Of a DNA stretch of 58,193 nt, positions 8,462-45,361 are shown in pieces; within the stretch, counting starts at the first letter, position 1, and every line of letters begins with the position of its first letter. Source of the DNA: an uncultured Lachnospiraceae bacterium (GTDB lineage: Bacteria; Bacillota; Clostridia; Lachnospirales; Lachnospiraceae); contig CAMQZX010000001.1 of the NCBI GenBank assembly GCA_947039785.1, forward strand, positions 1 through 58,193, given 5' to 3'. Below the pieces are notes generated by a model. That model searched no databases and was not told the origin of the DNA. It saw only the letters and a list, made by a program, of their open reading frames with translations. The position numbers and the translations under genes were made by a program.

Positions 8462-10495
8462 CTACCGACATGGCCTTCCGTACAAACCGATGTTAGACGG
8501 AACCAATGGCCGGTAAACCACGCCATATGCTGTCCCTCGTGCGTCCACCTGCATCCCATTTCCTACATAAATCGCCACATGCCCAATAGACATAAATTCC
8601 CCCGCATTTGTATCACGGGAATGGAAGATCAAATCTCCTGGCCGTAGTTCATTTTCACTAACCTGTAGACCATTGTCTACAATATACTGTCCCTGTGTTG
8701 ATGCAACGGATGGAAGGTTTATACCAAATTCTGCATATAACCTCTGTACCAGAGAACTGCAGTCATAATATCCTTCCTCATACCGCAAATCCTGGCTATA
8801 CTGGCAGCCAACCTTATCTAACGCCGCAAGTGCCACCTGCTCGCCAATGCCGCTTGCAGGCATACTGTGCAGGAATTCGTCACTCATGACCTCACGCAGC
8901 AACTTCTCCTGACTGGGTGTCAGTTTGCCAAGTTCAATATAATCTTCATAGGTAAGGTTGTACACATATAATGAGGTGTGTGTTACTTCCACCGTGTTGC
9001 TGCCATTGGAATCAGCCAAAAATACCTCCATATCCTGATGTCCAAAATTCTGGGCTGTCCCATGGTCTCCAAAATACATATCAAAGTCTACACCATAACG
9101 GTCAAAATCTCCGGTATCCTCCACCACATATTCCTTTCCGCCTGCTATGATATGTGTCCCCATAGGAAGCGTGGGATTATAAGCATCAACGGCCAGGGTG
9201 TGGTCTGCTTTCGGCATGACGCCGCTTGCCGTAGGACCTCCCGACCATTGGCCACAGCAGATAGAACAGTTGCAATAACCACTGAATGTCATGATTCCAA
9301 GGCTTTCACCGGCCCGGATCGTATCTGTCACTGTCTCAGATGCAAAGTGGTTCATTTCATCAAAAATCTCCTTTAAGTGCTTTTTATTCTTATCACTCAT
9401 GACGGTTGAGAAATTTCCCTGCCCGGTTCCATAACGCACCATATATACCATCATCACATCGGTAAAATTGCTACGAGCCACGCCATTCTGCATATTTTTG
9501 TAGGTTACATCCTCATCACTGTCCTCTTCCGCCGCCCTTACTTCCTCGTTAAATTCCCGGTAATACTCCGATAATACGCTTTGTACCGTATCCCCTTCCT
9601 GTAATGGCGGTAGAAAGAGAGCCAAAGGGGTGTTATACAGGATTACAATAATCAGGACAAAGGGCAAGGCAATCGTAACCAGCCCTCCCAATAACGGCCC
9701 CAACAGCCCCAGAAGATACAAAACAAGCTGTTTGACAACCAATCCAGCCCTCATGACGGCGATATCTTTTGCGGCTTTTGCAAAACTGTCCTTTTGTTCC
9801 TCACCACTTAGCTTGTTCACCATAAAAGCATACATGCGCCTCCGGATAGCTTTTTTCATCCGGGTATTTTCCTGTTCCTTTTTTACCCTTCCTCGCCTTA
9901 CTTCATTCTTTGAGGATATCTTCTCATCTTTTTTTCTGGTCTTTAATGTATCCCGGTCCTCTCCCGACATTTGTTGACTTTGAAATCTGTCCTCCGACTT
10001 CTGGTCCACTGCTTCGGGTCCCCGCTCCGTTCGTGTGAGGGTCACGGTATCTTTAAATCCAAAATCATAATCTTTCCGTTTAATATCCGGGCCGGAAACA
10101 TTGGCTAAGTGAAACTTAGGATCTTCTTTGCTGGCTTTTTGCTTCTGCTTTTCCCGGACAAAGTTCTCTTTTGGTTTCTCCTTCCGCTTCCGCCCTCCAT
10201 CATCTTCAAAATCTGCGTTCTTCTCACTTCCAGCCGAATATCTGGGATAAGTTTCTTTCCTTGATTCCTGGCGTGATTCCTGATCTGACTTCTTTTTCTC
10301 TTGTCTGGTTTGCCTTGTATTTTTATAATCCAGGGAACCCTCTTTCTTTCCTGGCTGCTTTCTAAACCCTGATACAGAATTCGCTGCAAGAACCGCACTT
10401 TTCTTATCTTCTTGTTCCTTCGGCTCTGATACAGGATGAATCTCCGTGGACTTCATGTGGATCTTTTTATCCGATAATGAGGCTTTTTCATCCAT
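8462..10495 (-). CDS. Conjugation-associated cell-wall hydrolase: K/E-rich N-terminal region, TM segment, 3D/lytic-transglycosylase-like domain, C-terminal NlpC/P60 peptidase
   Basis: ORF track. The C-terminus reads CQYSQDLRYEEGYYDCSSLVQRLY...GHVAIYVGNG (NlpC/P60 Cys-His signature). The middle reads GYCNCSICCGQWSGGPTASG...AVD...GGKEYVVEDTGDF (3D-domain-like). A hydrophobic segment reads LVLYLLGLLGPLLGGLVTIALPFVLIIVILY. The true start may lie upstream (see finding). Confidence 0.8.
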   Translation of the reverse strand: MDEKASLSDKKIHMKSTEIHPVSEPKEQEDKKSAVLAANSVSGFRKQPGKKEGSLDYKNTRQTRQEKKKSDQESRQESRKETYPRYSAGSEKNADFEDDGGRKRKEKPKENFVREKQKQKASKEDPKFHLANVSGPDIKRKDYDFGFKDTVTLTRTERGPEAVDQKSEDRFQSQQMSGEDRDTLKTRKKDEKISSKNEVRRGRVKKEQENTRMKKAIRRRMYAFMVNKLSGEEQKDSFAKAAKDIAVMRAGLVVKQLVLYLLGLLGPLLGGLVTIALPFVLIIVILYNTPLALFLPPLQEGDTVQSVLSEYYREFNEEVRAAEEDSDEDVTYKNMQNGVARSNFTDVMMVYMVRYGTGQGNFSTVMSDKNKKHLKEIFDEMNHFASETVTDTIRAGESLGIMTFSGYCNCSICCGQWSGGPTASGVMPKADHTLAVDAYNPTLPMGTHIIAGGKEYVVEDTGDFDRYGVDFDMYFGDHGTAQNFGHQDMEVFLADSNGSNTVEVTHTSLYVYNLTYEDYIELGKLTPSQEKLLREVMSDEFLHSMPASGIGEQVALAALDKVGCQYSQDLRYEEGYYDCSSLVQRLYAEFGINLPSVASTQGQYIVDNGLQVSENELRPGDLIFHSRDTNAGEFMSIGHVAIYVGNGMQVDARGTAYGVVYRPLVPSNIGLYGRPCR

Positions 10496-15844: not shown

Positions 15845-18241
15845 TTATGAATACTGGTCATCCGTCTTTATTCCCTGTTTGTTTTTTTCATGAAGATTTG
15901 TATTGAACAAATCATATATGATGTTATTCTTCTTTACCCTGGCATCAAAAGGAATAATGACTTCACCGTGTTTCAGGATTCCCATACCGGAATTACAGCC
16001 GTTCACGTATTTCAACTGTGCTTCCGGAATCCCCGCTACCCGTGAAAGTTCCTGGCTGTCCACATTTGCCTGTTTTAACAAAGCAATAAATTCAGAGTTC
16101 GCCAGCATGGTTACGGCTGTATAGTTCTGTAACATATCAGAAATATTCTGGGTGATGGCGGTGCACAAGCCGCCTTGTTTCCTTACTTTCTTCCACAGGG
16201 AATAGAGAAATTTCCCCGAATATTCACTGCGTCCAGAATGTTCCCCGGTTCCCAGCAACACATGGCACTCATCTATGTAAAGCCATGTTGCTCTTCCTTT
16301 TTCTGCATTTCTGGCAATCCGCGCCCGGACATTTTCCAGCATGACCAGCATCGCAATCGCACTCAACTCTTTTCCAAGGTCACGGATTCCGTAAACAATG
16401 AACCGGTTGTCTACGTCTAAATTGGTTTGATGGTTGAAAATATTCAAGGAACCGCTTACAAACAGCTCAAGCCCCAGGGCAATATCCCTGGCTTCCTCCT
16501 CTGGCTGCTTCATCAGCAGGTCATAAAAATCCGACATGACCGGCACATATTTTTCCTTACTCATGGCAATATCCAGATACAGCTTACGGATACAACGGTC
16601 AATGATGGATTTATGCCGGCTGTTTAGCATTTCCGACATCGCCTGCTCACACAGGCCAAGCATAAATTCTCCTTTATCCCGGATCAGCCCTTTGCTGTCG
16701 GCAAGATCCAACTCGTCCACATCAAGCCAGAGTGGATTGATATAGTTCTGGGTATAATTTGACAGGTTGATGCATACACCCCCTAAGTTCTGGGCGATGT
16801 CAAAATACTCCAGTGTCGGGTCGATAACGATGATATCATCACCGGTCTGCAAATATACCCCCAACATTTCGGACTTACAGAAAAAGGATTTTCCACTGCC
16901 GGGTACGCCAAATACCATAGCGTTTCCATTGGTCAGTTTTTTCCGGTCTGCCACGCACAGGTTTTTAGAAATCCGATTCGTTCCATAACATAAGCCCGTG
17001 GGTTCATAAATCTCCTGCACATTAAAAGGCATTAAAGCCGCGATATCCCGTGTAAGCATGGTGCGCATGGTTTCGACTTGTCGCACCCCTACAGGCAGAG
17101 CAGTATTTAATGCCTCTCGCTGTTGGAGATGATGTACCTCCATATTACAGAGATATTTGTTTCCTATCGTCTGGATTGTCTCTGTGATACTGTTAAGTTC
17201 TTCCCTGGTATCCGCAATCAGTACCATATTTACACCTGCAAAGAACAGGTTCTGGTCATTCTCCCGTACATCGTCCATCAGCGCTTCCAGGGTTTTCTTT
17301 TCCACTTTCTTTCCATAACTGATGTCACTTGCAAAGTCATTGTTTTTATTACGGACACGCTGCTGGCGTAAAATATCCGACTCCACACCCAGATATTTTT
17401 TCTGCAATGTTCTTGTTGTCAGATCCTTTGGCACAGGCACAATATCTATAGAGGTAATACTGTGTACAGGAACATTGGTAAGTTCATTGATAAAGGTGTC
17501 CGGCAGGCTTGTCGGATATCTTCTGATGAATACAGCCCTGCAGATTTTCCGTTCTGTTTCAAAATCATTCGGGGAATACTTAATCATGGAACCGCAGATA
17601 TCATTTTTGTAATCTGTTTTACTTTGTACATACGCATCAAAATCAAAAGAAAATGTTTCTTCGTCACCAATGCGGTAAAAATTATACAGAACCCGGAGCC
17701 GTTCCGCTGCGTCAAGCGGCTCCAACTTTGAGCCTATTGCATGGAATTCCTGCTGCATCCCACCTTCAAAGGTATTGAAAAATGCTTTTGCCTGTTCATA
17801 ATCTTTCCGTTCCACAGTAACCGTAAGAAAGCGTTCTTGTTCAATCCCCTGTTTTCCCGCTACAATCCGTTCCTCTACGATATCATTGTAAACGTCCCGA
17901 AGATGGTCATAGCCATCATCTTTATCTGGTATCAGGACATTCTCCCTAAACTGGCTCATGTTCCTGTTTTTGTTGTATATTGTAATCTTAAAAGCAACAT
18001 CAATCGCATTAACCAGCTTGCAATACTGCTTTAAGATTTCATACTGGTCTCCCTCCGACACCGTGACATAATTTATGTCAGCAAAACGGTATACCCTGCT
18101 GTACCGGTTCTTTGTATTCTCAAAAATACCATCCTTTGCAATCCTCAGAATCTCAATCTGCTGCTGAACACTCTTCGGGACTGCAAACAATGGTTTGTCC
18201 GCTTTTTTTAACTGTATGAAACGATCTGTAAAAATTCCCAC
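15845..18241 (-). CDS. virB4: VirB4-family T4SS ATPase (Firmicutes CD1110/PrgJ type)
   Basis: ORF track (GTG start, SD AAAGGAGG). Walker A is GVPGSGKSF; Walker B region is LYIDECHVLL; 798 aa. Confidence 0.85.
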   Translation of the reverse strand: MGIFTDRFIQLKKADKPLFAVPKSVQQQIEILRIAKDGIFENTKNRYSRVYRFADINYVTVSEGDQYEILKQYCKLVNAIDVAFKITIYNKNRNMSQFRENVLIPDKDDGYDHLRDVYNDIVEERIVAGKQGIEQERFLTVTVERKDYEQAKAFFNTFEGGMQQEFHAIGSKLEPLDAAERLRVLYNFYRIGDEETFSFDFDAYVQSKTDYKNDICGSMIKYSPNDFETERKICRAVFIRRYPTSLPDTFINELTNVPVHSITSIDIVPVPKDLTTRTLQKKYLGVESDILRQQRVRNKNNDFASDISYGKKVEKKTLEALMDDVRENDQNLFFAGVNMVLIADTREELNSITETIQTIGNKYLCNMEVHHLQQREALNTALPVGVRQVETMRTMLTRDIAALMPFNVQEIYEPTGLCYGTNRISKNLCVADRKKLTNGNAMVFGVPGSGKSFFCKSEMLGVYLQTGDDIIVIDPTLEYFDIAQNLGGVCINLSNYTQNYINPLWLDVDELDLADSKGLIRDKGEFMLGLCEQAMSEMLNSRHKSIIDRCIRKLYLDIAMSKEKYVPVMSDFYDLLMKQPEEEARDIALGLELFVSGSLNIFNHQTNLDVDNRFIVYGIRDLGKELSAIAMLVMLENVRARIARNAEKGRATWLYIDECHVLLGTGEHSGRSEYSGKFLYSLWKKVRKQGGLCTAITQNISDMLQNYTAVTMLANSEFIALLKQANVDSQELSRVAGIPEAQLKYVNGCNSGMGILKHGEVIIPFDARVKKNNIIYDLFNTNLHEKNKQGIKTDDQYS

Positions 18242-21952: not shown

Positions 21953-22830
21953 TTAAGATTCTTGATGGCCGGTCAGTTGTTCGCGTATTTCACGCATTTG
22001 TCCGGCACTTTTATCTGATTTAAAGTAAGTCAATATATCCTGGTAGGAAAGACCTCCTACCAATCCAAGACGTATTTCTTCTAACTGCTCTAATGTATAA
22101 TCATTATTTATTAGCATTTCATTAAACTGCTCTTCTGTAATCTGTCCCAAATCCTGCTTTTCTATATTCTCGATTTCAGTTATTTTGCGGTTCTTTTTCA
22201 GTTCATCTTCTGAAAATATCTTTGCCGGCATATCAGGTTCCTGCAATGATAGCAATTCGTCCAGTGTTATTTCATCTATCTGAACATTCAGCCCCTGGTT
22301 CCTCTGGCGTTCATAATATTCAAAAGACTGCCGGTTCAGCAATTCGCAGGTTGGCACTGTACTTTTCTCACGGATTGGTGTATGATGATATGGTGGTGCG
22401 CCGCCATCAAACGTCTCCTTGAAAAGAGGATGCGCCGGGGTATTGTATTTTGAATCTACAATCGGGTCAAATCCCCGGATAAAGATCAGGCACTTTTTAT
22501 TATCCAGCTTTCTGGCCTCATCCGGTGTCAGTAGTTCCCTTCCCAGCACATCAAAGTTTCGGCTGCTGCTGCCATTTTTTCCTCTTGTTTCACCAGAACT
22601 CCGCTTATCTACCGTAGCCTTCCCGAGCATCTTAGAAATATAATCGTGTGTACTCTGTTCATTCCCGCCAAGGTAGACCAAAGTGTCACAGTTCCCTGGG
22701 ATGACCTCCCATGTCTTTTCAAACAATGCTTTAATCTGCGCAAGGTTCTGTATAATAATGATCGATGAAATTTCTCGTGACCTCATGGTACTAAGTAAAC
22801 CGCAATAATCATCCGGTAATGCAAATGGCA
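21953..22830 (-). CDS. T4SS coupling protein (VirD4/TraG family), exon 2
   Basis: The ORF track lists 21953..22903, whose first ~24 codons are intron domain V/VI sequence. From 22830 the frame reads (V)PFALPDDYCGLLSTMRSREISSIIIIQNLAQIKALF, the canonical continuation after the DEFAN Walker B region. Confidence 0.8.
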
Positions 22831-23623
22831 ATAGGTAAACCTCTGGCACTGCCGCCTCGGGTTTTTCCCCTGCCCCGCACCGTGCATGATAGTTTCCCAT
22901 CACACGGCGCTCCCCCGACTAAGAACATAATCTCTTAGTATCGGCTTGAGGCTATCCCTCCACCGCTTATTATCACGGTTTCCCTGGTACTGTGCCTCTA
23001 CTCTCACAACCACTAATGCACTTATTATAGAAGTTTTTCTCCCCCTTCCTTTTCGCTGCAACTACGGTACTTTGTCGCTGATACAGTCAGCTCCCGTATT
23101 GGCTGCTTTCCACGTTCCACATAACTTAGGATTGCTACCACTTAGGCCGCTCCTTTAGCCCTGCAAGCATTATCTTCAAGGTAAATCCTCAAGATACCTA
23201 TACCCTATAAGCACAGAAGGCATTTCATACTAACAAATTTTACTTTGCCCCGCCTGCGTACCCCTGGTACACCTGCATTTCTACAGGCTATTTGTTTAGA
23301 GCCGTACATTCGGAACTTTGTCAGACCTCCTTTGGGTCATTCTAGCCATATGGCAGCCCCACCCGCACTGTCACACACAACTCATACCTCTATGAATCTT
23401 TCCTCGCCTTTCAGCGTTAGGGTGTGCTTCGCACGACTTCCCCGCGCTTATAACCCCAACCATCTGTATCTGGCTGACGCTACGTGGAGTATCAGTGAAT
23501 CCCCTTCCGGGCGTTACCCCATCATTTGAGATTTCAGTTATGCAGTTCTCCAAAGCCATTCATGGCTTTAGGCTGCGGTTTTGTCGGTTATTTCCACCGT
23601 TTTGGACGCAGAACGTGTCACAC
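22831..23623 (-). mobile_element. ORF-less group II intron (793 nt) interrupting the coupling-protein gene
   Basis: The 5' end is GUGUGACACG. A domain V-like 36-nt hairpin lies at 22877-22912: GAGCGCCGUGUGAUGG-GAAA-CUAUCAUGCACGGUGC, with an AGC triad, a GAAA loop and a 2-nt bulge. It sits 46 nt from a 3' end ...UUUACCUAU. Removing the segment restores the frame (AAT G|TG CCA = N V P). No reverse-transcriptase ORF is present. Boundaries are +/- a few nt. Confidence 0.75.
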
Positions 23624-24860
23624 CATTAGCAAACTCATCAAGCATAAAGGCCACATGGATTGGTAATCTTCCTTCGTAAATAAAGTCAGCCTGGAAGTAC
23701 AGTTCCTGGAATATCTGGCTGTAAAGCAGCCCTACAATGCTGTTGAACGATTTATCGGAATCCGGAATCACACAAAAAAGAGCTGTTTTTGTCTTTCCAT
23801 CACCATTTCTTCCCACCCCTATCTCCGGGATATTGATATCATCATGGTCCAGGATACGGAGGATTTGTGGATTTTCCAAAAAAGCCAGTCTGGAATTTGC
23901 ACTGATAACAATACTCCGGACCGTATCAGCCGCTCCTCTGATTACTTTATAATACTGTTTGACTGCTGGATGATTGCTGCCCTTTTTACGCTCCAGGCGC
24001 TTAATCCTGCGGTCTAAGTCCGATGGCGAGCCATCATCACGTACCTCTGCTTCTCCCAGTAATTTCAGTACCGTGGAAAAGTTCTGTTCACTTTTGGGGC
24101 ATTCCAGCCAAACATAGTAGAACAGCGCCTGCAGGTATAGCGACTCTGCTTTCTCCCAGAAGGGATCGCTGCTCTGGGAGTTTTTCGGGGTTGTATTGGC
24201 GATCAGGTTTGTAATTAATTTTACGACATCTGATTCCTTCCGGATATACATAAATGGATTATAGCAGTCAGACTCTTCCATGTTCAGCAGATTCAGGACT
24301 TTGACAACATAACCGTGTTTCTGTAAGAATCCCCCGCAGGCTTTTAAAATTTCCCCTTTCGGGTCAGTGATTATATAAGAAGAACGGTTAAGCTGTAACA
24401 AATTAGGCTTACAAAAGAAGAAACTCTTTCCCGCTCCACTTCCCCCGATGACCAAAGTATTCAAGTTCAGCTTCGTTTTACGCGAATCCATCCTCATACG
24501 GACATTTTGGCTTAGTATGCGGTTCTCTGTCTCGTCCTTCTCGGCTAACACCTGATTCACCTGTTTGATATCTGCAAATTTGGCTGTACCATATTCTTTT
24601 CCCGGCATATAGTTTTTTCTGCTGGTCAGATACATGGCAATCGCAATCATATATACGAATTCTGCTAGTAATATCCCCTTAAAAGTTGTATCATTGAAGT
24701 AATTTCCAAATGGGCGGGCCATAACCATGTTAAGACGCTCCATAAAGGTATTGATATCAATCCCCTGTTCCCAGATGCCATTAAGAAGATACCCGCCATA
24801 TGCCGCCAGCACACCACCAAGTACAATCAGCCAGACAGAAGTTTTTTTCTTATTTTCCAT
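23624..24860 (-). CDS. T4SS coupling protein (VirD4/TraG family), exon 1
   Basis: The ORF track lists 23568..24860. N-terminal TM segments, Walker A VIGGSGAGKSFF, and a Walker B region HVAFMLDEFAN. After this the listed ORF runs into the intron and stops. Confidence 0.85.
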
Positions 24861-26074
24861 TACCTTCCTCCCCGCTTTTTTAGTTGGCCTGCCATCTGCA
24901 GTTTCCGGTTTTCTTCTTTTTTCTTGTGCAGCATGTCTCTGGTTTCTTTCAAGACTGGATCATAGCTCTGGTTGTATAACTCTTCCCCGGTACGTTTTCC
25001 AATTACCTGCCCCTCATTATTCACCACGCTGTATTCTTTATCCTTTCGAAGATTAGTAAATATTGTTCTCTTCTCCTCACTGATATGGGATATGGAATTT
25101 TTATCTATCCACAGGTACTCATTCTTTTTGAACGGAATCCGTGTGAGAATTCTCTTTTCAGTCTCTTCCACCGCAAGGCTCCTGGCAATAAAAATCTGAT
25201 GGATATTTGGATCGTCTCTGACAGCTTCCTTTGCATGCTGCAGTACCTTCCTCTGGCGGCTATTCATCTCAGACATCTGCTTCTGTGCAGCCTCTGCCTT
25301 ATGCGGCTGCTCCATCCCCCGCACAATAGGCTCCATGTCCTCCGCATGCTGCCATTTCCCCTGTTTCTCATACGCAGCAAACTCCTGTTTGTCCATTTTA
25401 AAGGCCATGCTGCCATCGTCATTGATCTCCAGGATTCCCAGGCTTTCCATATGTTTCAGTACAGGCTCTACTTCCGCCCATGGCATATCTATGGCATTAC
25501 TGATTTCCCCAACACCCGCCCCTGGTGTCTGTGCCAGATATGTCCCAACTGCCTTAAATCCCCATGGAGAGATGGACTGTTCTTTAGGGGCGCTCTGCTT
25601 GTTTGGGTCCGACATATCCTTCTTGTCTATCCCGTAAGTCTCTTTCAGTTCCTTCTCCTCCCCGTTATCCAGATAATCCTGGATTGATTCAATCTTGCTC
25701 CCCTCGATGTCCCCCATGATTTGATTCACTCTGGGTGTAGCATCAGAATGAAAAAGGATTTCACTTTTACCATCCGCTTTATTGATATCTGGGAGGAGTG
25801 CATAGCGGATTTTATATTTATCAGCCAGCTTTTTCACCTTATTAATATCAGTCGTATCAAAACGGAAAACCTGCAAATCGCCTCCTGTTTTAAGAAGGTC
25901 TTTTACGGTTGTCCTTCCGGATAAACGTTCCATCTCCACCAACCTGCCAACGAATTTTCCAATATCCTTAGCCGTATGAAGCCCGCCTCCGACAATTTTC
26001 ATGAATATCTCAATTCCCTCAAATGATACCCGCAGGATTTGGGTAGCTTCCTGTATTTCTCCCATAGAACTCAC
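24860..26074 (-). CDS. pcfB: PcfB-family (DUF3801) conjugal transfer protein
   Basis: ORF track. N-terminal pattern ...SFEGIEIFMKIVGGG...LLKTGGDLQVFRF...KKLADKYKIRYALLPD, and a position directly upstream of the coupling protein (TAATG overlap). Confidence 0.65.
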   Translation of the reverse strand: MSSMGEIQEATQILRVSFEGIEIFMKIVGGGLHTAKDIGKFVGRLVEMERLSGRTTVKDLLKTGGDLQVFRFDTTDINKVKKLADKYKIRYALLPDINKADGKSEILFHSDATPRVNQIMGDIEGSKIESIQDYLDNGEEKELKETYGIDKKDMSDPNKQSAPKEQSISPWGFKAVGTYLAQTPGAGVGEISNAIDMPWAEVEPVLKHMESLGILEINDDGSMAFKMDKQEFAAYEKQGKWQHAEDMEPIVRGMEQPHKAEAAQKQMSEMNSRQRKVLQHAKEAVRDDPNIHQIFIARSLAVEETEKRILTRIPFKKNEYLWIDKNSISHISEEKRTIFTNLRKDKEYSVVNNEGQVIGKRTGEELYNQSYDPVLKETRDMLHKKKEENRKLQMAGQLKKRGGR

Positions 26075-27971: not shown

Positions 27972-28529
27972 CTACCGTACCTTTCCTGATCGGGCCGGAA
28001 CCTTATCCGTTATATTCTCTAAAGAAGAAATAAGAGCCATAATCTTTTCACTGTGACCTTTTTCCAAAACAGTCTCTAAATAGTCTATGATGTCCTGGCG
28101 CTTTTCCCGGTCTCCAATATCCCTGTAGAGGCGTCTTACCGGATCGGACTGGTTGTCCCCGGCTCTCATGTATCCCGCATCAAGATACTGGATAAAGTCT
28201 GTTTCCTTCATCACATCGTTCAGTTCCCATGCCAATTCCGCCATTTCTTCCTTCTTATCTGCTTTCCTGACAGCTCCGACCTCATCTAATTTATCTGCCA
28301 GGTTCACTCCCTGCTTCCTGTCCCGGTCAGGTAAGAGCGAAGAACGGTACATCAAAAAGCAGGTTAGATGGTCCCTCAATCTATGATTGTCTAAGACCGC
28401 TCTAATCCCAGGTATTTTCCCCCCTGCTGGTACTAAATCACGGAAGCTCTCAATATATGCGTCTCCCAGCTTACATTCCAAAAGATATTTTTTTATTTCA
28501 GAAGCCAGTTTATCCTGCTCATAGATCAC
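27972..28529 (-). CDS. Hypothetical protein (185 aa)
   Basis: ORF track. Overlaps the relaxase 3' end by 11 nt. Confidence 0.5.
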   Translation of the reverse strand: MIYEQDKLASEIKKYLLECKLGDAYIESFRDLVPAGGKIPGIRAVLDNHRLRDHLTCFLMYRSSLLPDRDRKQGVNLADKLDEVGAVRKADKKEEMAELAWELNDVMKETDFIQYLDAGYMRAGDNQSDPVRRLYRDIGDREKRQDIIDYLETVLEKGHSEKIMALISSLENITDKVPARSGKVR

Positions 28530-29973
28530 GACTTTCTCCTCCTCTTTCCCTGCTTTTCTGCTTGTCTCTGCTCTGCATTCTCTCCTTTTGCTCCTGCATA
28601 ATTTTCTTCCCTATCCTCTGCTGTCGCCTTACCTCCGCAAGAACCTCATTGAGCCGGCGATTTTTCTCCTGGAAATTCAGGTACAACTGCTCTGCTGAAT
28701 CAAATGTGTACCCCATATCCAACAACTGCGTTTTTAGCTGCTCTGCCTGCAGGTATTCTTCCTTAAATTCCTCATATCCCTCCTCATATAAAGAAACCTC
28801 AACCTTCAGTTCCTGGAGCTTTTCCCAAAGTTCAAATATCTCTGTATTGGCTTCACGGTTCTCTTTTTGGTTCTTTTTCTCCTGCCTAAGCGATTTTGCC
28901 TGTTCAGCCAATGCTTTCCTGATATTTTCCAAGTCCCTGTCTGTATGTATCTGATAAGCCGAAATGAAATTATATTTCTCCTGTATCTCATGAAGTTTCC
29001 GGATATCTTCTTTATATTTCCATGCATCGGAATAAGGCTGTTTTTTTAGGACGCCCAGCCGGTATAACTTTGTAAAATACATCTTCTGGTATCCAGTCAA
29101 TGGGGACTTTCTTCTGGGAATATAACCAGTCACTTTTTTGACTCTGGGCGGCAGTTCCAATACTGGCTCCGGCAGTTCCTTTTCCCTTGCAGATATGGGG
29201 ATACTTAGCCGTTCGCGTATTTTTTCTTCTGTGTAATCGCCACCAAGGGTATCCAGCCTGCGCCCCTTATCCATACCTGGCGGCTTTAACAGAATATGCG
29301 CTCCCTGTTTTATCTCATATCCCCGTTCTTCTACTCCAATAAGGAACTCATCCCAGTTTTCCGCCTCGGCCGCCACCTGGTCGATGTCACGGCGGATCAT
29401 ATCATTCCAACTAAATTTACCATCTTTACCCTGATCCCAGATGCGTTCCTTTTTTTTCTTTCTGTTCTGGCGTACTTTATCCATATCCAGTGTTGCCATA
29501 TGGTACTCTTCACAGATTTTGTTGACAAGCGGCTGTATGATTTTGTCCCAATCACCATTTCGGTAATCATATTTCTTCCCTTCTCCAATACAGCGGACAC
29601 TATTAAATGCAATATGGCCGTGGATATGATCGGTATCATCATGAAGCGCATAGACTGCCTCAAACTCTTTTCCAAGGTACTCCTCTACAAATTTCCCTAT
29701 AATCTTCATGGCAACATCTTTATCAACGGTATCTGCTGCCTCTTCAAATGAGATAATGATATGGTATCCCTGGCGTCCCCCCATCTTATCGTACCTTCGC
29801 TTAGTGTTCAGCATTTGTTTCAGTGCAGTCTCCGGCAGACAGTTATGGCCTGATACATACAGCCCATTTTCAGTTTTGCTGTCCTTCGTAATATAATTAA
29901 TCGTATTTGCGAGATGCTTTGCCTGAAATCCCGATTTTGCACATCCCATATGCAATATTTTACTGATAGCCAT
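28519..29973 (-). CDS. Relaxase / mobilisation nuclease (MobA/VirD2-type, PF03432-like)
   Basis: ORF track. Histidine triad HDDTDHIHGHIAFNSV, an N-terminal region ending ...GYHIIISF, and a long coiled-coil C-terminus. Confidence 0.85.
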   Translation of the reverse strand: MAISKILHMGCAKSGFQAKHLANTINYITKDSKTENGLYVSGHNCLPETALKQMLNTKRRYDKMGGRQGYHIIISFEEAADTVDKDVAMKIIGKFVEEYLGKEFEAVYALHDDTDHIHGHIAFNSVRCIGEGKKYDYRNGDWDKIIQPLVNKICEEYHMATLDMDKVRQNRKKKKERIWDQGKDGKFSWNDMIRRDIDQVAAEAENWDEFLIGVEERGYEIKQGAHILLKPPGMDKGRRLDTLGGDYTEEKIRERLSIPISAREKELPEPVLELPPRVKKVTGYIPRRKSPLTGYQKMYFTKLYRLGVLKKQPYSDAWKYKEDIRKLHEIQEKYNFISAYQIHTDRDLENIRKALAEQAKSLRQEKKNQKENREANTEIFELWEKLQELKVEVSLYEEGYEEFKEEYLQAEQLKTQLLDMGYTFDSAEQLYLNFQEKNRRLNEVLAEVRRQQRIGKKIMQEQKERMQSRDKQKSRERGGESRDL

Positions 29974-36686: not shown

Positions 36687-37592
36687 TTATCTTGCCTTAT
36701 GTCTCGTTTTTTTCTCTATCTGTGCCGCCGGTTGGATTGCAAGGCTTTCGGCATCAAACTGGAACACCATATTAGAGACCTGGACAGGGAACACTTCTGC
36801 TCTTTTATCCATCTCATTGCTCTTTTTTACTATTTCCTGCAAAGTTTCCAAACTGTGTCCTGATATTGGACAGACAAGGATTTTATCATTTGATAACGGC
36901 ATAACATACAGGTCATCATCCAAACGCCTTGAGATTTCACTCAAACCCTCGGGATAGAACATGATTGCAATCCCATTCTCGCTGTACACCCCGTAATAGT
37001 CTTTTGTGTCTGGAAGCGCCCCGCTTAATGCCCCTAATGTATGAGCCAGAACAGCTCTGCTCGTATCCAAAACCGTCTGAAAGCGTTCATTCATATCGAA
37101 ATATTTGACTTTATCAAATAATTCCTGTACCGTAAGTCCCCACTGCTTTAAATGTTCATTTTGGACAGGTCTTTTATAATCCAGAGGCCACTGTTCATCC
37201 TCGTCATAGACTTCATCAAAGAACTGAAAATATACAGCCATATCCCCAACAGGCAGATATGGTATATCATTCCCTTCCAGCTTTTCGGCTGCCTTTTCAA
37301 AATTAGCCGCCCAAATCGTAACATTTTCTAACTGCTCAATCGTTTCAATAGCACGCTTTTTTTCAAAATAATCGCAGATACTGCTTACCTGGGCCGTTAA
37401 TTCGCCTTCTTTCCACTGTCTATATAAGCTATGGATTGACAATGACTGGCTACACACAGGCGGCTGCATAAGTTCAAGGGCTATTTCCTCATTGTCCGTA
37501 CCTTCTGCTATTACTATCAATCTCTGATGCTCTTCATCAATGTGACGCCCAAGTTCTGTAATCAGTCCCTGTTTATATTCTTCATATGTCAT
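36687..37592 (-). CDS. Paralogue P8 of the eight-gene ~300-aa family (subfamily C, closest to P4)
   Basis: ORF track. Family motifs: GNDIPYLPVGDMAVYFQF, NEHLKQWGLTVQELF, YGVYSENGIAIMFYPE, LYVMPLS. Basic tail KKTRHKAR. Confidence 0.65.
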   Translation of the reverse strand: MTYEEYKQGLITELGRHIDEEHQRLIVIAEGTDNEEIALELMQPPVCSQSLSIHSLYRQWKEGELTAQVSSICDYFEKKRAIETIEQLENVTIWAANFEKAAEKLEGNDIPYLPVGDMAVYFQFFDEVYDEDEQWPLDYKRPVQNEHLKQWGLTVQELFDKVKYFDMNERFQTVLDTSRAVLAHTLGALSGALPDTKDYYGVYSENGIAIMFYPEGLSEISRRLDDDLYVMPLSNDKILVCPISGHSLETLQEIVKKSNEMDKRAEVFPVQVSNMVFQFDAESLAIQPAAQIEKKTRHKAR

Positions 37593-38530
37593 TCATTTAC
37601 ACCCTTCAACCATTCGCGTATGGTCAGCAATTTGTTCTTGTTCTCCGATGGTGAATAGTGGAAACCATGACTTGATATGGCATACCCAGCCAAGCTGTGT
37701 CGAACCTGACGGTTCCCATTCTTGTGGACATCTTCAATGGAAAATGCTGGTGCCAGTGCTCCCATAGTATCAGGCAGGATATAAGCCTCCCTCTCTGAAT
37801 ATGGCAAAATATAAAAGCTATCCGGCATCAGGCGGCTAAGTTCCTGTAAGGTATCCCAGTATAATACACTTGCCGCTCCTCCAGGTCCCGTGACCACATA
37901 ACCAAGGCTATCCTCTGCCTCTCCATTGTTCAGACAGCACGAAATACCTTCCAGCACGTTTTCAATCTTCTCACACAACGGATAGATTTTGCTCTCCATG
38001 GATACCAGCGAATGTTCCAGTACAAAATTATGAAAATCACTTTTTCTCATTTTCCAGGATGCCAGATGTTTATTGGTTACTTCTGCCTGATAATAACGCC
38101 CGTCTCCCAGCGGTGCGTGAAACATATAGTAGAGCACCATGTCCCCCATAACCTGGTAAGGCATATCATTCTTTTTCAGGGCTTCCAGGTCACTTCTATG
38201 GTTTGCGGCATATACTGCCACATATTCCGGCTGTTCCAACTGGCCTACTGCAATACGCAGATCTTCCGCTTCCGCATCAGAGAACACTTCCATCGCCCGG
38301 TCTGCCAATTCCTCTTCCCAGGTGTCAAACATCTCCGCTCTCAAAAAAGCCTCCCTTACCGGAATGACGGGGCAGTACCGCCCCTCCTGCTCAAATAAAA
38401 TTGTGATTCCCTCGGTCGGGAGACCCCTAGCCACCGTTCTAACTTCCCCGCGAATTGCGGAATCCTCAAAAGCGGAACGAATACATTGCTGGTAAGCATC
38501 TGAAAACTGTTTATATAATTTGAGGTTCAT
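37589..38530 (-). CDS. Paralogue P7 (subfamily A, closest to P1)
   Basis: The ORF track lists 37589..38596; ATG 38530 is preferred (AAGGAG 10 nt upstream). Motifs: RYCPVIPV, NDMPYQVMGDMVLYYMF, VTNKHLASW, VTGPGGAASVLYW, FYILPYS. Confidence 0.65.
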   Translation of the reverse strand: MNLKLYKQFSDAYQQCIRSAFEDSAIRGEVRTVARGLPTEGITILFEQEGRYCPVIPVREAFLRAEMFDTWEEELADRAMEVFSDAEAEDLRIAVGQLEQPEYVAVYAANHRSDLEALKKNDMPYQVMGDMVLYYMFHAPLGDGRYYQAEVTNKHLASWKMRKSDFHNFVLEHSLVSMESKIYPLCEKIENVLEGISCCLNNGEAEDSLGYVVTGPGGAASVLYWDTLQELSRLMPDSFYILPYSEREAYILPDTMGALAPAFSIEDVHKNGNRQVRHSLAGYAISSHGFHYSPSENKNKLLTIREWLKGVNE

Positions 38531-38592
38531 ATTCTTATCTCCTTTATGATTAAATGAAAAAAGCAGGTTCTTTTCTGAATCGCTCTGAAAAG

Positions 38593-39525
38593 TCACCTGC
38601 TATGGTTTTTATTCACTTTTGGCTTCTGCCGCATCCTTTGACTTGTTTTACGGATCTCATCTGTTTTCCGGCTATAAACATAAATATAATCGGATAAATC
38701 TTTTTCCCTCTGCTGAAAACCATTTTGTTTAGAGTCGTAGAGGGTTTCCTGAATCCATTTTCTTCCGTCCCTGTTTTTATTTGATAATGCCACGCATTGA
38801 TTGATACTTGTAGGAAATAGTATCATATCGCCACCCAGTTTATCTGACAGCTCGTGTACTTTTTCTTTGTATAAAAAAGCAGAAGCACCCCAGTAAAAGC
38901 TCTCTGTTGTCATAATGTAGATATCCTTCTTTTCCGGTTCTGTCCCAAACGGTTCCACGGAAACAGCCCTTTGATTTTCCGGATTATCAAGCGACCACTG
39001 ATAAAGGGTATCAAAATCCATTCCAAACTCATTCAGCATTTCACTTGTCACTCTTAAATTAAGGTGCATATCTTCAAGCAAACAATCTGTTGAATGATAA
39101 ATAATCCTCAATACAATGGCAAGGTCCCCGTCTCCATATAGCTTATGTGGGAAATTGTCCAATACCTCTTGATTTCTTTTCGCGTTCATCAATGTCGGAA
39201 CTACTAGATTTGGCGATAACACCCCCATCTCTTTAAATGCGGCTTTGGTGATCCGGTCATCCCGCAATAAAAACTCTAGCGAATTCCTGACTACCAGCCA
39301 CAGGGGTTCTCCCAACTGTGTATGACGGTTATATGCTACAAAAGGAAATATTTCTGAGCCTTTCTCTGGGCTGCCCTGTAAACTGATCACACAGCCATCC
39401 GAAATATGGTCAGGCAGCACCACCTTCCACCCTAATCCCATCTTTTGTAAATTATTGTTTAATTCATATACAAAGGTTTCATAAAATTCCCTTTTCTCTA
39501 TGATTGAATATCTATCGTTTCTCAA
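38593..39525 (-). CDS. Paralogue P6 (subfamily D, closest to P5)
   Basis: ORF track (TTG start). Motifs: VVPTLMNAKRNQEVL, DLAIVLRIIY, VTSEMLNEFGMDFDTLY, WGASAFLYKE, ILFPTS. Tail KVNKNHSR. Confidence 0.6.
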   Translation of the reverse strand: MRNDRYSIIEKREFYETFVYELNNNLQKMGLGWKVVLPDHISDGCVISLQGSPEKGSEIFPFVAYNRHTQLGEPLWLVVRNSLEFLLRDDRITKAAFKEMGVLSPNLVVPTLMNAKRNQEVLDNFPHKLYGDGDLAIVLRIIYHSTDCLLEDMHLNLRVTSEMLNEFGMDFDTLYQWSLDNPENQRAVSVEPFGTEPEKKDIYIMTTESFYWGASAFLYKEKVHELSDKLGGDMILFPTSINQCVALSNKNRDGRKWIQETLYDSKQNGFQQREKDLSDYIYVYSRKTDEIRKTSQRMRQKPKVNKNHSR

Positions 39526-39534
39526 ACCCTCCCC

Positions 39535-40440
39535 CTATCTGCCTCGTTTTTTCGTTTCTTTTAACTGGCTGGGAGTAATCATACGAAACTGTGCGGTTTC
39601 ACAATTATAGTGGTATAGATTCCCAGACAGGGGCTTTATACTTCCAGTGATTACCTCTTTACTACTGTGTAGTGCATTAGATATATAATCTATGCCCTTT
39701 TGGTCTAAAAGCGGCATTGCCAAAAAATGGTCAACGCTCATAGGAACCAATAAGATATCATCCCCCATAGTTTCTGCAAGTTCATACATTCTGGTTTTGT
39801 AAAGAATACCTGCAGCGCCTAAATGTTGACCAGTATTCGTTACCACATAGAAGGGAGGTAAATCCTCTACTGTTTCATCGGGTGATATAATATCTATCAT
39901 CTTGTGCAACTCTATCATCTGTACAGACTCAACATTCCTCGGATTATCCAGGGCCATTTGATAAAGTTCATCATACCTCAGCCCCCATCCCTGTAAGATA
40001 TCGTCTGTTACCACAAGGTTGAGATTGATACCGCCCAGGGACTGATATGCAATTTGAAGTATAACTGCTAAATCTTCAAACCTTGAATATGGAACGGTTT
40101 TCAATAGTTCCTCATTTTCCTCTGTGTTCATAAAAGTGGGAATTACCATATCTGCATGAAAAAGCCCCATATCCATCAGTGCACATTTTGTGCTCTCATC
40201 ATCAAAGAAATCCTGTGTTGCTTTCCGTGCAGCGACTCCCCAGGGCATCCCCTGCAAAAACTCCTGGTAATAATCGTGAACTTTAATCGGAGGAAAATCA
40301 TGCCCTCCACCATGGATTACCACCAAAACTTCTTCTCTGCCGCCTGTGTTCTCATACTTAGCCCGCCATGGAACACCCAGCATTTTTAAATTATAGTTGA
40401 CTTCATGGGTAAAAAACTGGATGAATTCTTCATATTCCAT
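39535..40440 (-). CDS. Paralogue P5 (subfamily D)
   Basis: ORF track (SD AAGGAGG). Motifs: VIPTFMNTEENEELL, DLAVILQIAY, VTDDILQGWGLRYDELY, LGAAGILYKT, ILLVPMS. Tail KETKKRGR. Confidence 0.65.
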   Translation of the reverse strand: MEYEEFIQFFTHEVNYNLKMLGVPWRAKYENTGGREEVLVVIHGGGHDFPPIKVHDYYQEFLQGMPWGVAARKATQDFFDDESTKCALMDMGLFHADMVIPTFMNTEENEELLKTVPYSRFEDLAVILQIAYQSLGGINLNLVVTDDILQGWGLRYDELYQMALDNPRNVESVQMIELHKMIDIISPDETVEDLPPFYVVTNTGQHLGAAGILYKTRMYELAETMGDDILLVPMSVDHFLAMPLLDQKGIDYISNALHSSKEVITGSIKPLSGNLYHYNCETAQFRMITPSQLKETKKRGR

Positions 40441-40463
40441 CTTTGTCTGTCCTCCTTGAGATT

Positions 40464-41429: not shown

Positions 41430-41446
41430 TCCACTAACCCACCTAC

Positions 41447-42391: not shown

Positions 42392-42441
42392 CTATCTCCT
42401 TCCCTTCTGGCCGTCTGCGCTTCTCCCGATTAAAGCGGTTT

Positions 42442-43335: not shown

Positions 43336-43395
43336 TTTGGTTCTCCTCTTCGTCTATTTACCATTTCCTGCATCTGTAGACTCCCGTACCGACTC

Positions 43396-44310: not shown

Positions 44311-44333
44311 ACTATCTCCTTGCTTTTATGAAA

Positions 44334-45338: not shown

Positions 45339-45361
45339 AGCACCACCTCCTGAATCAGAGT

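What the first reader, a model, noticed from the sequence alone, without database searches (positions are those of the whole stretch)
22831..23623. The coupling-protein (VirD4/TraG) gene is split by an ORF-less group II intron
The T4CP reading frame breaks straight after the Walker B region ...MLDEFAN (exon 1 ends at 23624). It resumes 793 nt later as (V)PFALPDDYCGLLSTMRSREIS.

The intervening RNA has group II hallmarks:
- It begins GUGUG.
- It contains a domain V-like hairpin with an AGC triad, a 2-nt bulge and a GAAA tetraloop (22877-22912), 46 nt from the 3' end.
- It ends ...CCUAU.
- Removing it restores the frame exactly, giving a 704-aa T4CP.

No reverse-transcriptase/maturase ORF is present in the intron or anywhere else in the window. 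Production of the essential coupling protein, and so conjugation itself, would then depend on self-splicing or on a maturase supplied in trans by the host or another element. This echoes the Ll.LtrB intron in a lactococcal relaxase gene, but here the intron has no ORF and sits in the T4CP gene.
Basis: partly seen in the sequence, partly recalled or inferred. Interest (0 to 1): 0.7.

Follow-up and report, generated by a model that had tools for sequence, protein, structure and literature searches.

The report
ORF-less group II intron in T4CP gene
The conjugation coupling-protein gene of this gut-Firmicute mobile element is split by a real 799-nt self-splicing-type (group II) intron that has lost its own maturase gene, but the same arrangement has been described before, so it is a well-characterised new example, not a new phenomenon.

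Summary
Rfam finds a group II intron on the minus strand: D1 at 152.6 bits (E 5e-34) and D5-D6 at 58.7 bits. The 5' end is GUGUG at 23623. The 3' end is 22825, not 22831. Intron-less homologues read DEFAN-V-ALPDD, and the branch A (22832) lies 7 nt from the end. The intron is therefore 799 nt and the spliced T4CP is 702 aa. By helix register the D5 triad is CGC, not AGC.

No reverse transcriptase is encoded in the window. The intron is a clean D4 deletion derivative of full-length (~2.8 kb) introns that are up to ~90% identical across D1-D3. These relatives sit at exactly this Walker-B "DEFAN" codon position in many different Firmicute T4CP genes.

Covariation across about 100 relatives fixes EBS1, EBS2 and EBS3, so exon recognition is IIB-type. 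The ribozyme core is intact and the exons are under purifying selection. The same split allele occurs on hundreds of contigs, including Blautia schinkii and a Robinsoniella MAG. The ORF was lost at least five times independently at this site.

Precedents are the ORF-less B.th.I2 in the pAW63 VirD4 gene (2005) and DEFAN-targeting introns in S. suis ICEs (2025). Verdict: new member of a known kind, of moderate interest. Whether it splices, and whether that needs a maturase in trans, is untested.

The parts
23624..24860 (-). T4CP exon 1 (ATG at 24860; ends ...GAU GAG UUU GCU AAU G, i.e. DEFAN plus the first base of the next codon). If unspliced it reads through into the intron, giving a 430-aa product with the tail GVTRSASKTVEITDKTAA.
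   Evidence: Pfam T4SS-DNA_transf, TraG-D_C and TrwB_AAD_bind on the spliced protein. The 430-aa read-through product is in public databases: P0098, and P0121 on 329 contigs.
22825..23623 (-). ORF-less group II intron, 799 nt, IIB-type (GUGUG ... UUGCCAU).
   Evidence: Rfam hits. Boundaries come from intron-less homologues. Copies 98-99% identical occur in L004, L115, L061 and 8 metagenome contigs.
21953..22824 (-). T4CP exon 2 (UU GCA UUA CCG ... = (V)ALPDDYCGLLSTMRSREIS... to the stop). The 316-aa 'ORF' called from GTG 22903 is an artefact that starts inside D5.
23624..23630 (-). IBS1, GCUAAUG (exon positions -7..-1).
   Evidence: Pairs with EBS1 (4 Watson-Crick + 3 G.U pairs). Covariation in relatives.
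23630..23634 (-). IBS2, GUUUG (exon positions -11..-7; shares G-7 with IBS1).
   Evidence: Pairs with EBS2. Compensatory changes in L053, L055 and L062.
23111..23617 (-). Domain I (closing stem: intron 7-14 with 506-513).
   Evidence: The stem is conserved and covaries (C-G to A-U in the Enterococcus relative). RF02004 covers 23352-23550.
23290..23294 (-). EBS2, CAAAU (intron 330-334), in the loop of hairpin 321-338.
   Evidence: Relatives have A opposite exon U-8 and G opposite exon C-8. Own-exon pairing averages 4.65/5 in the DEFAN lineage.
23229..23235 (-). EBS1, UGUUAGU (intron 389-395), in the loop of the stem GGCA/UGCC.
   Evidence: Across 105 introns of the class, the homologous 7-mer forms 6.22/7 pairs with its own exon and 3.6/7 with other exons. 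Compensatory changes in L053, L055, L086 and L130.
23155..23155 (-). EBS3, A469, pairing with IBS3 (the first exon-2 nucleotide, U at 22824).
   Evidence: Across 83 introns this column is Watson-Crick complementary to the first 3'-exon base in 98% of cases (U:A 44, A:U 24, C:G 12, G:C 1). Mutual information is 1.36 bits, against 0.46 for the next best column.
23010..23107 (-). Domain II (approximate limits, intron ~517-614).
   Evidence: Placed between the D1 closing stem and the conserved D3. Limits were not tested individually.
22945..23009 (-). Domain III (approximate, intron ~615-679), the most conserved stretch of the class (GUGAGAGUAG.G.CACAGUACC ... GGAGGGAUAG).
22915..22944 (-). Domain IV reduced to a hairpin: CCGAUACUAAGA-GAUUAUGU-UCUUAGUCGG. 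This is the basal D4 stem of the full-length relatives. About 2,020 nt have been removed (the conserved segment upstream of the IEP start codon plus the IEP ORF).
22877..22910 (-). Domain V (34 nt; triad CGC at 22909-22907, GAAA loop, 2-nt bulge).
   Evidence: The first base pair shows a compensatory A-U to G-C change relative to the ORF-containing relatives.
22827..22873 (-). Domain VI with the bulged branch-point A at 22832 (7 nt from the 3' splice site).
   Evidence: Two compensatory pair changes relative to the relatives.

Best explanation
Window 23623..22825 (minus strand) is a IIB-type group II intron that has lost its intron-encoded protein.

Origin. It belongs to a lineage of Firmicute introns whose homing site is the Walker-B codons GAY GAR UUY GCN AAY R (DEFAN + 1 nt) of VirD4/TraG-type coupling-protein genes. 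It arose from a ~2.8-kb ORF-containing member by a clean deletion of the interior of domain IV.

Exon recognition. The intron recognises its exons through three pairings:
- EBS1 (UGUUAGU) with IBS1 (GCUAAUG).
- EBS2 (CAAAU) with IBS2 (GUUUG).
- EBS3 (A469) with IBS3 (U+1).
EBS1 places G opposite the Y wobble base and U opposite the R base. Synonymous variants of the target codons therefore stay paired.

Splicing. Branching at A792 (window 22832) and exon ligation at 23624|22824 would restore a 702-aa T4CP reading ...MLDEFANVALPDD....

Shown: identity, boundaries, pairings, ancestry, intactness of the core, and purifying selection on the exons.

Inferred: the intron still splices in vivo. Because bacterial group II introns generally need a maturase at physiological Mg2+ (established knowledge), splicing is most likely assisted by an IEP supplied in trans by a related full-length intron elsewhere in the host or on another mobile element. 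Unspliced mRNA would yield only a 430-aa truncated T4CP. Coupling-protein level, and hence transfer, would then be limited by splicing efficiency.
For: Identity and boundaries:
- Rfam D1 and D5-D6 hits.
- Exact junction from six intron-less homologues, and a DNA comparison with L005/L006.

Ancestry:
- Full-length relatives align on both sides of D4 with ~2,020 nt inserted: L087 at 87% over intron 1-691 and 86% over 700-799, L081 at 88.7%, L057 at 86%, S. suis at 84.5%.
- At least 25 of 129 class members sit at DEFAN|, in T4CPs of S. suis, Eubacterium uniforme, Butyrivibrio fibrisolvens, Ruminococcus flavefaciens, Lachnospiraceae and others.

Exon-binding sites by covariation.

Core intact:
- The window intron deviates at only 3 of 208 columns that are invariant in 21 ORF-containing or partly deleted relatives. 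This is within their own leave-one-out range, and one deviation improves the EBS2 pairing.
- Three compensatory pair changes in D5/D6.

Selection:
- dN/dS is 0.145 between two intron-bearing alleles (13 synonymous, 7 nonsynonymous changes).
- Intron divergence is 1.1% against dS of 2.9%.

Spread:
- The read-through exon-1 product is on 329 contigs.
- The same intron and exons, 98-99% identical, are in Blautia schinkii DSM 10518, a Robinsoniella MAG and 8 gut metagenome contigs.
- The rest of the transfer module is intact: relaxase, NikA, DUF3801, PrgI, VirB4-like, NlpC/P60.

Action in trans:
- The identical D4 deletion hairpin occurs in an intron 93% identical over D1-D3 inside a quite different T4CP (DEFPN|IGVVPDF), with unadapted EBS (L140). 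This implies the intron moved after the ORF was lost.

Precedent: pAW63 B.th.I2 (PMC1196294; PMC9673590).
Against: - No splicing data exist for this intron.
- No IEP is in the 58-kb window, and the host genome could not be examined.
- The deletion removed the conserved segment just upstream of the IEP start codon. In Ll.LtrB the corresponding DIVa is the high-affinity maturase-binding site (established knowledge), so help in trans could be inefficient.
- IEPs are usually intron-specific. The only IEPs seen near this allele (L138, L132) are 42% identical to the lineage's IEP or of another type.
- Several full-length relatives have disrupted IEPs (L057, L087, L098), so decay is common in the lineage.
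- The selection test rests on only 20 substitutions.
- L140 is a short metagenome contig whose intron carries a D1 deletion (RF02004 only 87.6 bits).
Confidence: 0.6

Rival explanations
1. The intron splices on its own, or with general host RNA chaperones, without any maturase. The ORF became dispensable, which is why it was lost repeatedly.
For: - At least five independent D4 deletions at the same T4CP site, each leaving a neat hairpin.
- The presumed IEP-binding part of D4 is gone too.
- No IEP is on the element.
- The ribozyme core is fully conserved.
- The allele is common and is found in different genera.
Against: - From established knowledge, bacterial group II introns studied so far need their IEP for efficient splicing in vivo, and self-splicing needs high Mg2+ and salt.
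- The apparent move of the deleted intron into another T4CP (L140) needs a reverse transcriptase from somewhere, so compatible IEPs do meet this RNA.
Confidence: 0.2
2. The intron no longer splices. The T4CP gene is a pseudogene, and the element is a decaying ICE or one that is only mobilised by others.
For: - No maturase is in the window.
- The upstream part of D4 is deleted.
- IEP decay is frequent in the lineage.
- Annotation pipelines call two truncated genes.
Against: - Exon 2 (872 nt) is open and 96-99% conserved in all copies.
- dN/dS is 0.145.
- The intron core, EBS-IBS pairings, branch site and D5 are intact, with compensatory changes.
- Near-identical element segments occur in different genera, which implies recent transfer.
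- The rest of the transfer genes are intact.
Confidence: 0.15
3. One reading: a 793-nt intron ending ...CCUAU at 22831, giving a 704-aa protein with DEFANVPFALPDD.
For: It also restores the reading frame, and CCUAU resembles a group II 3' end.
Against: - No homologue has the PF insertion.
- This boundary would place the bulged A 1 nt from the splice site instead of 7.
- All relatives end CCUAU-N4-AU.
Confidence: 0.02

Closest known systems
B.th.I2, the ORF-less group II intron in the VirD4-like coupling-protein gene (CDS 14/15) of Bacillus thuringiensis conjugative plasmid pAW63 (Van der Auwera et al. 2005, PMC1196294; review PMC9673590)
   Same: An ORF-less group II intron of under 1 kb splits the T4CP gene of a Gram-positive conjugative element. 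It has a higher G+C content than its surroundings (here 0.49 against 0.43). It was interpreted as a derivative of an RT-encoding intron, possibly served in trans.
   Different: - pAW63 carries a related RT-encoding intron (B.th.I1) on the same plasmid. This window encodes no RT.
- The host is different (gut Lachnospiraceae-type element).
- I could not retrieve pAW63, so whether B.th.I2 sits at the DEFAN site or belongs to the same RNA lineage is untested.
DEFAN-targeting group II intron family of Streptococcus suis Tn5252-type ICEs (PMC12479173, 2025)
   Same: - Same insertion site: the DEFAN motif of the PF02534 domain of the coupling protein.
- The S. suis copies found here (L071, L080, L098) are 84-85% identical in RNA to the window intron and share EBS1.
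   Different: - The S. suis introns found here are ~2.8 kb and carry a ~636-aa IEP ORF, intact in L071 and truncated in L098. The window intron has D4 reduced to a 30-nt hairpin.
- That paper did not describe ORF-less forms, the EBS/IBS code, or the spread across Clostridia.
Ll.LtrB in the relaxase gene ltrB of Lactococcus pRS01/sex factor
   Same: A group II intron sits in an essential conjugation gene at a conserved catalytic motif. Conjugation requires splicing, and the intron rides the element it interrupts (established knowledge; PMC7947834 introduction).
   Different: - Ll.LtrB is a IIA intron with its own LtrA, in the relaxase gene.
- This one is IIB-type (EBS3 is remote from EBS1), has no ORF, and sits in the T4CP gene.
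Naturally ORF-less bacterial group II introns served in trans (B.c.I7 copies on pE33L466, PMC2504315; cyanobacterial examples cited there)
   Same: D4-deleted derivatives of full-length introns, with evidence of mobility after the deletion (here L140).
   Different: Those cases have a full-length copy in the same genome. Here a co-resident source of IEP could not be checked.

Membership tests
Group II intron (ribozyme) | 5' GUGYG and 3' AY ends | tested here: met
   GUGUG at 23623-23619...CCAU ending at 22825.
Group II intron (ribozyme) | Domain V: 34-nt helix with catalytic triad, G.U pair, 2-nt bulge and GNRA loop | tested here: met
   RF00029 at 58.7 bits (gathering score 40). D5 is 22910-22877, with triad CGC and a GAAA loop.
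Group II intron (ribozyme) | Domain VI with a bulged branch-point A 7-8 nt from the 3' splice site | tested here: met
   A at 22832, 7 nt from the end.
Group II intron (ribozyme) | Domain I core structure | tested here: met
   RF02004 at 152.6 bits, full model 1-201, E 5e-34. The D1 closing stem covaries.
Group II intron (ribozyme) | EBS1-IBS1 and EBS2-IBS2 pairing with the 5' exon | tested here: met
   Covariation across 105 introns for EBS1. Compensatory changes for EBS1 and EBS2.
Group II intron (ribozyme) | Splicing (lariat formation, exon ligation) | not testable with these tools
   Needs RT-PCR or in vitro assays.
IIB structural class | EBS3 in D1, remote from EBS1, pairs with the first 3'-exon base (not a delta base adjacent to EBS1 as in IIA); EBS2 is present (unlike IIC) | tested here: met
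   The column of A469 is complementary to IBS3 in 98% of 83 introns. The base 5' of EBS1 is U opposite U+1, so there is no IIA-type pair. EBS2 is supported. The formal IEP-based phylogenetic class was not assigned, because this intron has no IEP and the relatives' IEP hits only RVT_1.
ORF-less group II introns (D4-deletion derivatives) | No IEP ORF in D4; clear descent from ORF-containing relatives | tested here: met
   D4 is a 30-nt hairpin. Relatives carry ~2,020 nt between the same stem strands.
ORF-less group II introns (D4-deletion derivatives) | A related IEP in the same genome able to act in trans | tested here: inconclusive
   None is in the 58-kb window.
DEFAN-site T4CP intron lineage (S. 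suis family, PMC12479173) | Insertion after the first base of the codon following DEFAN in the PF02534 domain | tested here: met
DEFAN-site T4CP intron lineage (S. suis family, PMC12479173) | Homologous intron RNA | tested here: met
   84-85% identity to the S. suis copies and up to 90% to Lachnospiraceae copies over D1-D3.
DEFAN-site T4CP intron lineage (S. suis family, PMC12479173) | Encodes the family's IEP | tested here: not met
   The ORF is deleted.
VirD4/TraG-type T4CP (NCBI 'CD1115 family') | T4SS-DNA_transf / TraG-D_C domains with Walker A and Walker B, as one continuous protein after splicing | tested here: met
   Pfam on the spliced 702-aa product. 90% identity over 100% of its length to the uninterrupted P0001.

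The most novel reading that the evidence does not exclude
The recurrent, clean loss of the maturase gene from T4CP-resident introns may be selected rather than mere decay. An ORF-less intron in the coupling-protein gene would make transfer of the element conditional on a maturase supplied by another intron-bearing element in the same cell. That would be an inter-element dependency, or licensing switch, that gates conjugation by host or mobilome context. The truncated 430-aa exon-1 product might also act as a brake.
Probability: 0.12. Interest if true: 0.6.

Novelty: new member of a known kind. Interest (0 to 1): 0.32.

Why it matters
For annotation: split T4CP genes such as this one are called as two truncated genes or as pseudogenes. 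That makes intact ICEs look defective, a point the S. suis study also made. The corrected junction, together with the EBS1/2/3-IBS rules derived here, lets such introns be recognised and removed in silico.

For biology: the coupling protein is essential for conjugation, so the splicing efficiency of a maturase-less intron could set the transfer rate of a widespread gut-Firmicute element. The comparative data go beyond what the two prior reports describe, and they are testable in a cultured carrier, Blautia schinkii DSM 10518:
- A whole intron lineage is specialised on the Walker-B codons.
- Its EBS1 tolerates wobble-position variation in the target.
- The ORF was lost at least five times independently.
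- There is a hint that the intron moved after losing its ORF.

None of this changes the known picture of group II introns in conjugative elements.

Tried and rejected
1. Rejected on homologue junctions and D6 geometry.

2. 'AGC triad'. The letters AGC occur, but they are out of register with the D5 helix. The triad is CGC, as in all relatives.

3. An EBS1/EBS2 pair in domain II.
   - Intron 606-612 (CAUUAGU) is perfectly complementary to IBS1, and 588-593 (AAACUU) matches exon positions -13..-8. This looked attractive.
   - The C. perfringens relative even has a complementary 7-mer in the same alignment columns.
   - However, the segment lies outside D1, is conserved whatever the exon, and does not covary. 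I rejected it as the EBS and leave it as an unexplained coincidence.

4. The minimum-free-energy fold of the whole intron did not reproduce the D1 architecture. I did not use it for domain limits.

5. Retrieving pAW63 (DQ025752, CP004071) to compare B.th.I2 directly failed, because it is not in the plasmid collection.

6. dN/dS against L115 was distorted because that contig ends inside a second intron in exon 1. I discarded it.

7. Assigning a formal IEP-based intron class. The relatives' IEP hits only RVT_1 in Pfam, and its best PDB matches are IIC-type RTs and LtrA with similar scores. This was not decisive.

8. Looking for a co-resident IEP in the carrier genomes.
Full report
**Observation**

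Reading the minus strand, the T4CP frame runs from ATG 24860 to ...AUG CUU GAU GAG UUU GCU AAU G, followed by GUGUGACACG... A stop follows 18 codons later, so gene callers report a 430-aa protein.

Rfam at gathering thresholds finds exactly two RNA features in the 58 kb, both here:
- RF02004 (group-II-D1D4-5): 152.6 bits, E 5e-34, full model, at 23550..23352.
- RF00029 (group II D5-D6): 58.7 bits at 22912..22825.

The intron is real and far beyond chance.

**Boundaries**

The 3' end is not.
- The Rfam D6 alignment ends at 22825 (...CCUA-UUGC-c-AU), with the bulged A at 22832, 7 nt from the end.
- Splicing at either 22831 or 22825 keeps the frame. Only 22825 gives the sequence found in uninterrupted homologues.
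- P0001 (90% identical, 706 aa, named VirD4-like, CD1115 family, Hungatella), P0003, P0004, P0031 and P0080 all read DEFANVALPDD, and P0010 reads DEFSNVALPDD.
- At the DNA level the intron-less allele L005/L006 reads GCAAACG|TCGCGTTACCGGAT. The window, once spliced, reads GCTAATG|TTGCATTACCGGAT.

The intron is therefore 23623..22825, 799 nt. The product is 702 aa and carries T4SS-DNA_transf, TraG-D_C and TrwB_AAD_bind domains.

D5 is the 34-nt helix 22910..22877. In that register the triad is CGC with the canonical G.U pair. Relatives read ACGCC and have no AGC at all.

**No maturase**

- tblastn of a class-matched IEP (Enterococcus ltrA from L001) against the window gives nothing better than E = 1.4.
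- No YADD motif lies in any sizeable ORF.
- A Pfam scan of 66 ORFs shows no RVT_1.
- D4 is only a 30-nt hairpin.

**Surroundings**

All neighbouring genes lie on the same strand and are intact:
- NikA-like protein and relaxase (28522-29973).
- DUF3801 protein (24863-26074).
- The split T4CP.
- N6/N4 methylase, PrgI, and a VirB4-like ATPase (15848-18241).
- NlpC/P60 hydrolase (8465-10495).
- Upstream, a C-5 methylase, an array of DUF5688 paralogues and a Tad-like pilus module.

This is a Firmicute conjugative element whose transfer module is otherwise complete.

**Relatives and ancestry**

A blastn search of plasmids found the class in three forms:
- In Enterococcus, with ltrA.
- In C. perfringens pJFP838A, as a 737-nt ORF-less copy splitting dnaE at MPDIDV|DF.
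- In B. thuringiensis.

Parsing with nhmmer gave 129 introns.

At least 25 of them sit at exactly the same place as the window intron: after the first base of the codon following DEFAN. The host T4CP genes are otherwise very different and include S. suis, Eubacterium uniforme, Butyrivibrio fibrisolvens 16/4, Ruminococcus flavefaciens, several Lachnospiraceae and Anaerovoracaceae. Most of these introns are ~2.8 kb.

The closest full-length ones align with the window intron on both sides of D4:
- L087: 87% over intron 1-691 and 86% over 700-799.
- L081: 88.7%.
- L057: 86%.
- S. suis copies: 84.5%.

They read CCGAUACUAAGA-[~2,020 nt]-UCUUAGUCGG, where the window has CCGAUACUAAGA-GAUUAUGU-UCUUAGUCGG. 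The window intron is therefore a clean D4-interior deletion derivative.

Intact IEPs of 625-638 aa exist in L071, L028, L123 and L118. Those of L057, L087 and L098 are disrupted.

Other ORF-less introns at the DEFAN site (L042, L055, L062, L086) have different deletion junctions. Some are closest to different ORF-containing relatives; L086, for example, is 92-94% identical to L029, L084 and L110. The ORF was thus lost at least five times independently.

**Exon recognition**

A tempting perfect match to IBS1 at intron 606-612, with an adjacent match to positions -13..-8, lies in domain II. It is conserved regardless of exon, so I rejected it.

The true sites emerge from covariation:
- **EBS1** is UGUUAGU (intron 389-395, window 23235-23229), pairing with GCUAAUG (exon -7..-1).
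  - Across 105 introns of the class, the homologous 7-mer forms 6.22 of 7 pairs with its own exon and 3.6 of 7 with other exons.
  - Within the DEFAN lineage, exon variants are matched by compensatory changes: UGUAACA with UGUUGCG in L053, CCGAAC with GUUCGG in L055, C-5 with G in L086, and C-1 with G in L130.
  - EBS1 puts G opposite the Y wobble base (-2) and U opposite the R base (-1). All synonymous AAY-R variants therefore remain paired.
- **EBS2** is CAAAU (intron 330-334, window 23294-23290), pairing with GUUUG (exon -11..-7).
  - Compensatory changes occur in L053, L055 and L062.
  - Relatives have A opposite exon U-8 and G opposite exon C-8.
- **EBS3** is A469 (window 23155). Across 83 introns this column is Watson-Crick complementary to the first 3'-exon base in 98% of cases. 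Its mutual information is 1.36 bits, against 0.46 for the next best column.

EBS3 is remote from EBS1 and EBS2 is present. Recognition is therefore IIB-type.

**Is it still functional?**

This is indirect evidence only.
- The window intron deviates at 3 of 208 columns that are invariant in 21 ORF-containing or partly deleted DEFAN-site relatives. This is within their own leave-one-out range, and one deviation improves the EBS2 pairing.
- D5 and D6 carry three compensatory base-pair changes relative to those relatives.
- Between two intron-bearing alleles (window and L004), dN/dS is 0.145 (13 synonymous, 7 nonsynonymous changes). The intron differs by 1.1% against dS of 2.9%.
- The read-through exon-1 product is on 329 contigs in NCBI, JGI, ENA and Logan data.
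- Essentially the same intron and exons (98-99%) occur in Blautia schinkii DSM 10518 (L061), a Robinsoniella MAG (L115), L004 and eight human-gut metagenome contigs.
- One metagenome contig (L140) has the identical D4 deletion hairpin in an intron 93% identical over D1-D3. That intron sits inside a quite different T4CP (DEFPN|IGVVPDF) whose exon pairs poorly with the unchanged EBS1 and EBS2. The simplest reading is that the already ORF-less intron moved, which requires an RT in trans.

Caveats are that L140 is a short contig and its intron carries a deletion in D1.

**Mechanism**

I commit to the following. The RNA is a competent IIB-type ribozyme that is excised from the T4CP mRNA and restores the 702-aa protein. 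In vivo it most likely relies on a maturase from a related full-length intron elsewhere in the cell.

- The first part (identity, ancestry, pairings) is shown.
- Splicing itself is inferred, at a probability of about 0.8.
- Trans-dependence against autonomy is open, at roughly 60:20 within the splicing readings.

Against help in trans, the deletion removed the conserved segment just upstream of the IEP start codon, which corresponds to the DIVa maturase-binding site of Ll.LtrB (established knowledge). The IEP-bearing introns found in the same gene in other copies are only 42% identical to the lineage IEP (L138) or are of another type (L132).

**Comparison with what is known**

[quoted passage not shown] The same trans-maturase question was raised then (PMC1196294). 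[quoted passage not shown] The S. suis loci found here belong to the same RNA lineage as the window intron.
- ORF-less bacterial introns with full-length relatives are also documented (PMC2504315).
- Full-text searches for group II intron with VirD4 and ORF-less, or with DEFAN, return only these papers.

The finding is therefore a new member of a known kind. What this analysis adds is the corrected anatomy, the EBS1/2/3 code, the breadth of the DEFAN-site lineage across Clostridia and Bacilli, the repeated ORF loss, and the hint of mobility after the deletion.

**Verdict**

Interest is 0.32.

Noticed in passing
window 36687-46417 (minus strand): Ten tandem ORFs of about 300 aa each. Eight of the window's ORFs match Pfam DUF5688, which I take to be members of this array; individual hits were not mapped. 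This is a large paralogue array inside the conjugative element, of unknown role.
   Followed up: no
window 54390-57478 (minus strand): A Tad/Flp-pilus-like module on the same element: RcpC/CpaB (56690-57478), an AAA_31 ATPase (55877-56686) and a T2SSE-type ATPase (54390-55880). A Peptidase_A24 hit lies elsewhere in the window.
   Followed up: partly
L132:9078-9811 (human gut metagenome contig): In another copy of this T4CP allele, a second group II intron of a different type ends only 4 nt upstream of the ORF-less intron. It has a D5-D6 hit at 9082-9178 and an IEP C-terminal ORF at 9197-9811. This leaves a 4-nt micro-exon, AATG, between two introns.
   Followed up: partly
L138:313-3059 in the reverse-complement orientation of the T4CP gene (as computed; about 2566-5312 in locus coordinates); L115 contig end: The same allele can also carry a full-length 2,745-nt intron (635-aa IEP, 42% identical to the DEFAN-lineage IEP) in exon 1 at DPFWE|K. 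In L115 the contig ends in the 3' end of yet another intron at that site, with about 45 extra nt between the D6-like CCUAUCG and the exon, possibly a 3' extension.
   Followed up: partly
L002:2937-3673 (C. perfringens plasmid pJFP838A): The dnaE gene, annotated as two CDS, is split by a 737-nt ORF-less intron of the same Rfam class at the PHP-domain motif MPDIDV|DF. Full-length relatives sit at the same motif in L051 and L054.
   Followed up: partly
loci L007-L131 (class-wide): Introns of this class recur at a few conserved protein motifs: EGYGNDN|RAKSQG (at least 13 loci; host gene not identified), NDPFW (a second T4CP site), MVWEN|AGAFSS (C-5 methylase-like), SDHHA|IPTE (topoisomerase-like) and YWMTFN (GH1-like).
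   Followed up: no
window 23012-23018 and 23031-23036 (intron 606-612 and 588-593, domain II): CAUUAGU is perfectly complementary to IBS1, and the nearby AAACUU is complementary to exon positions -13..-8. Yet the segment is conserved irrespective of exon and does not covary. It is probably coincidence, but it is unexplained.
   Followed up: yes
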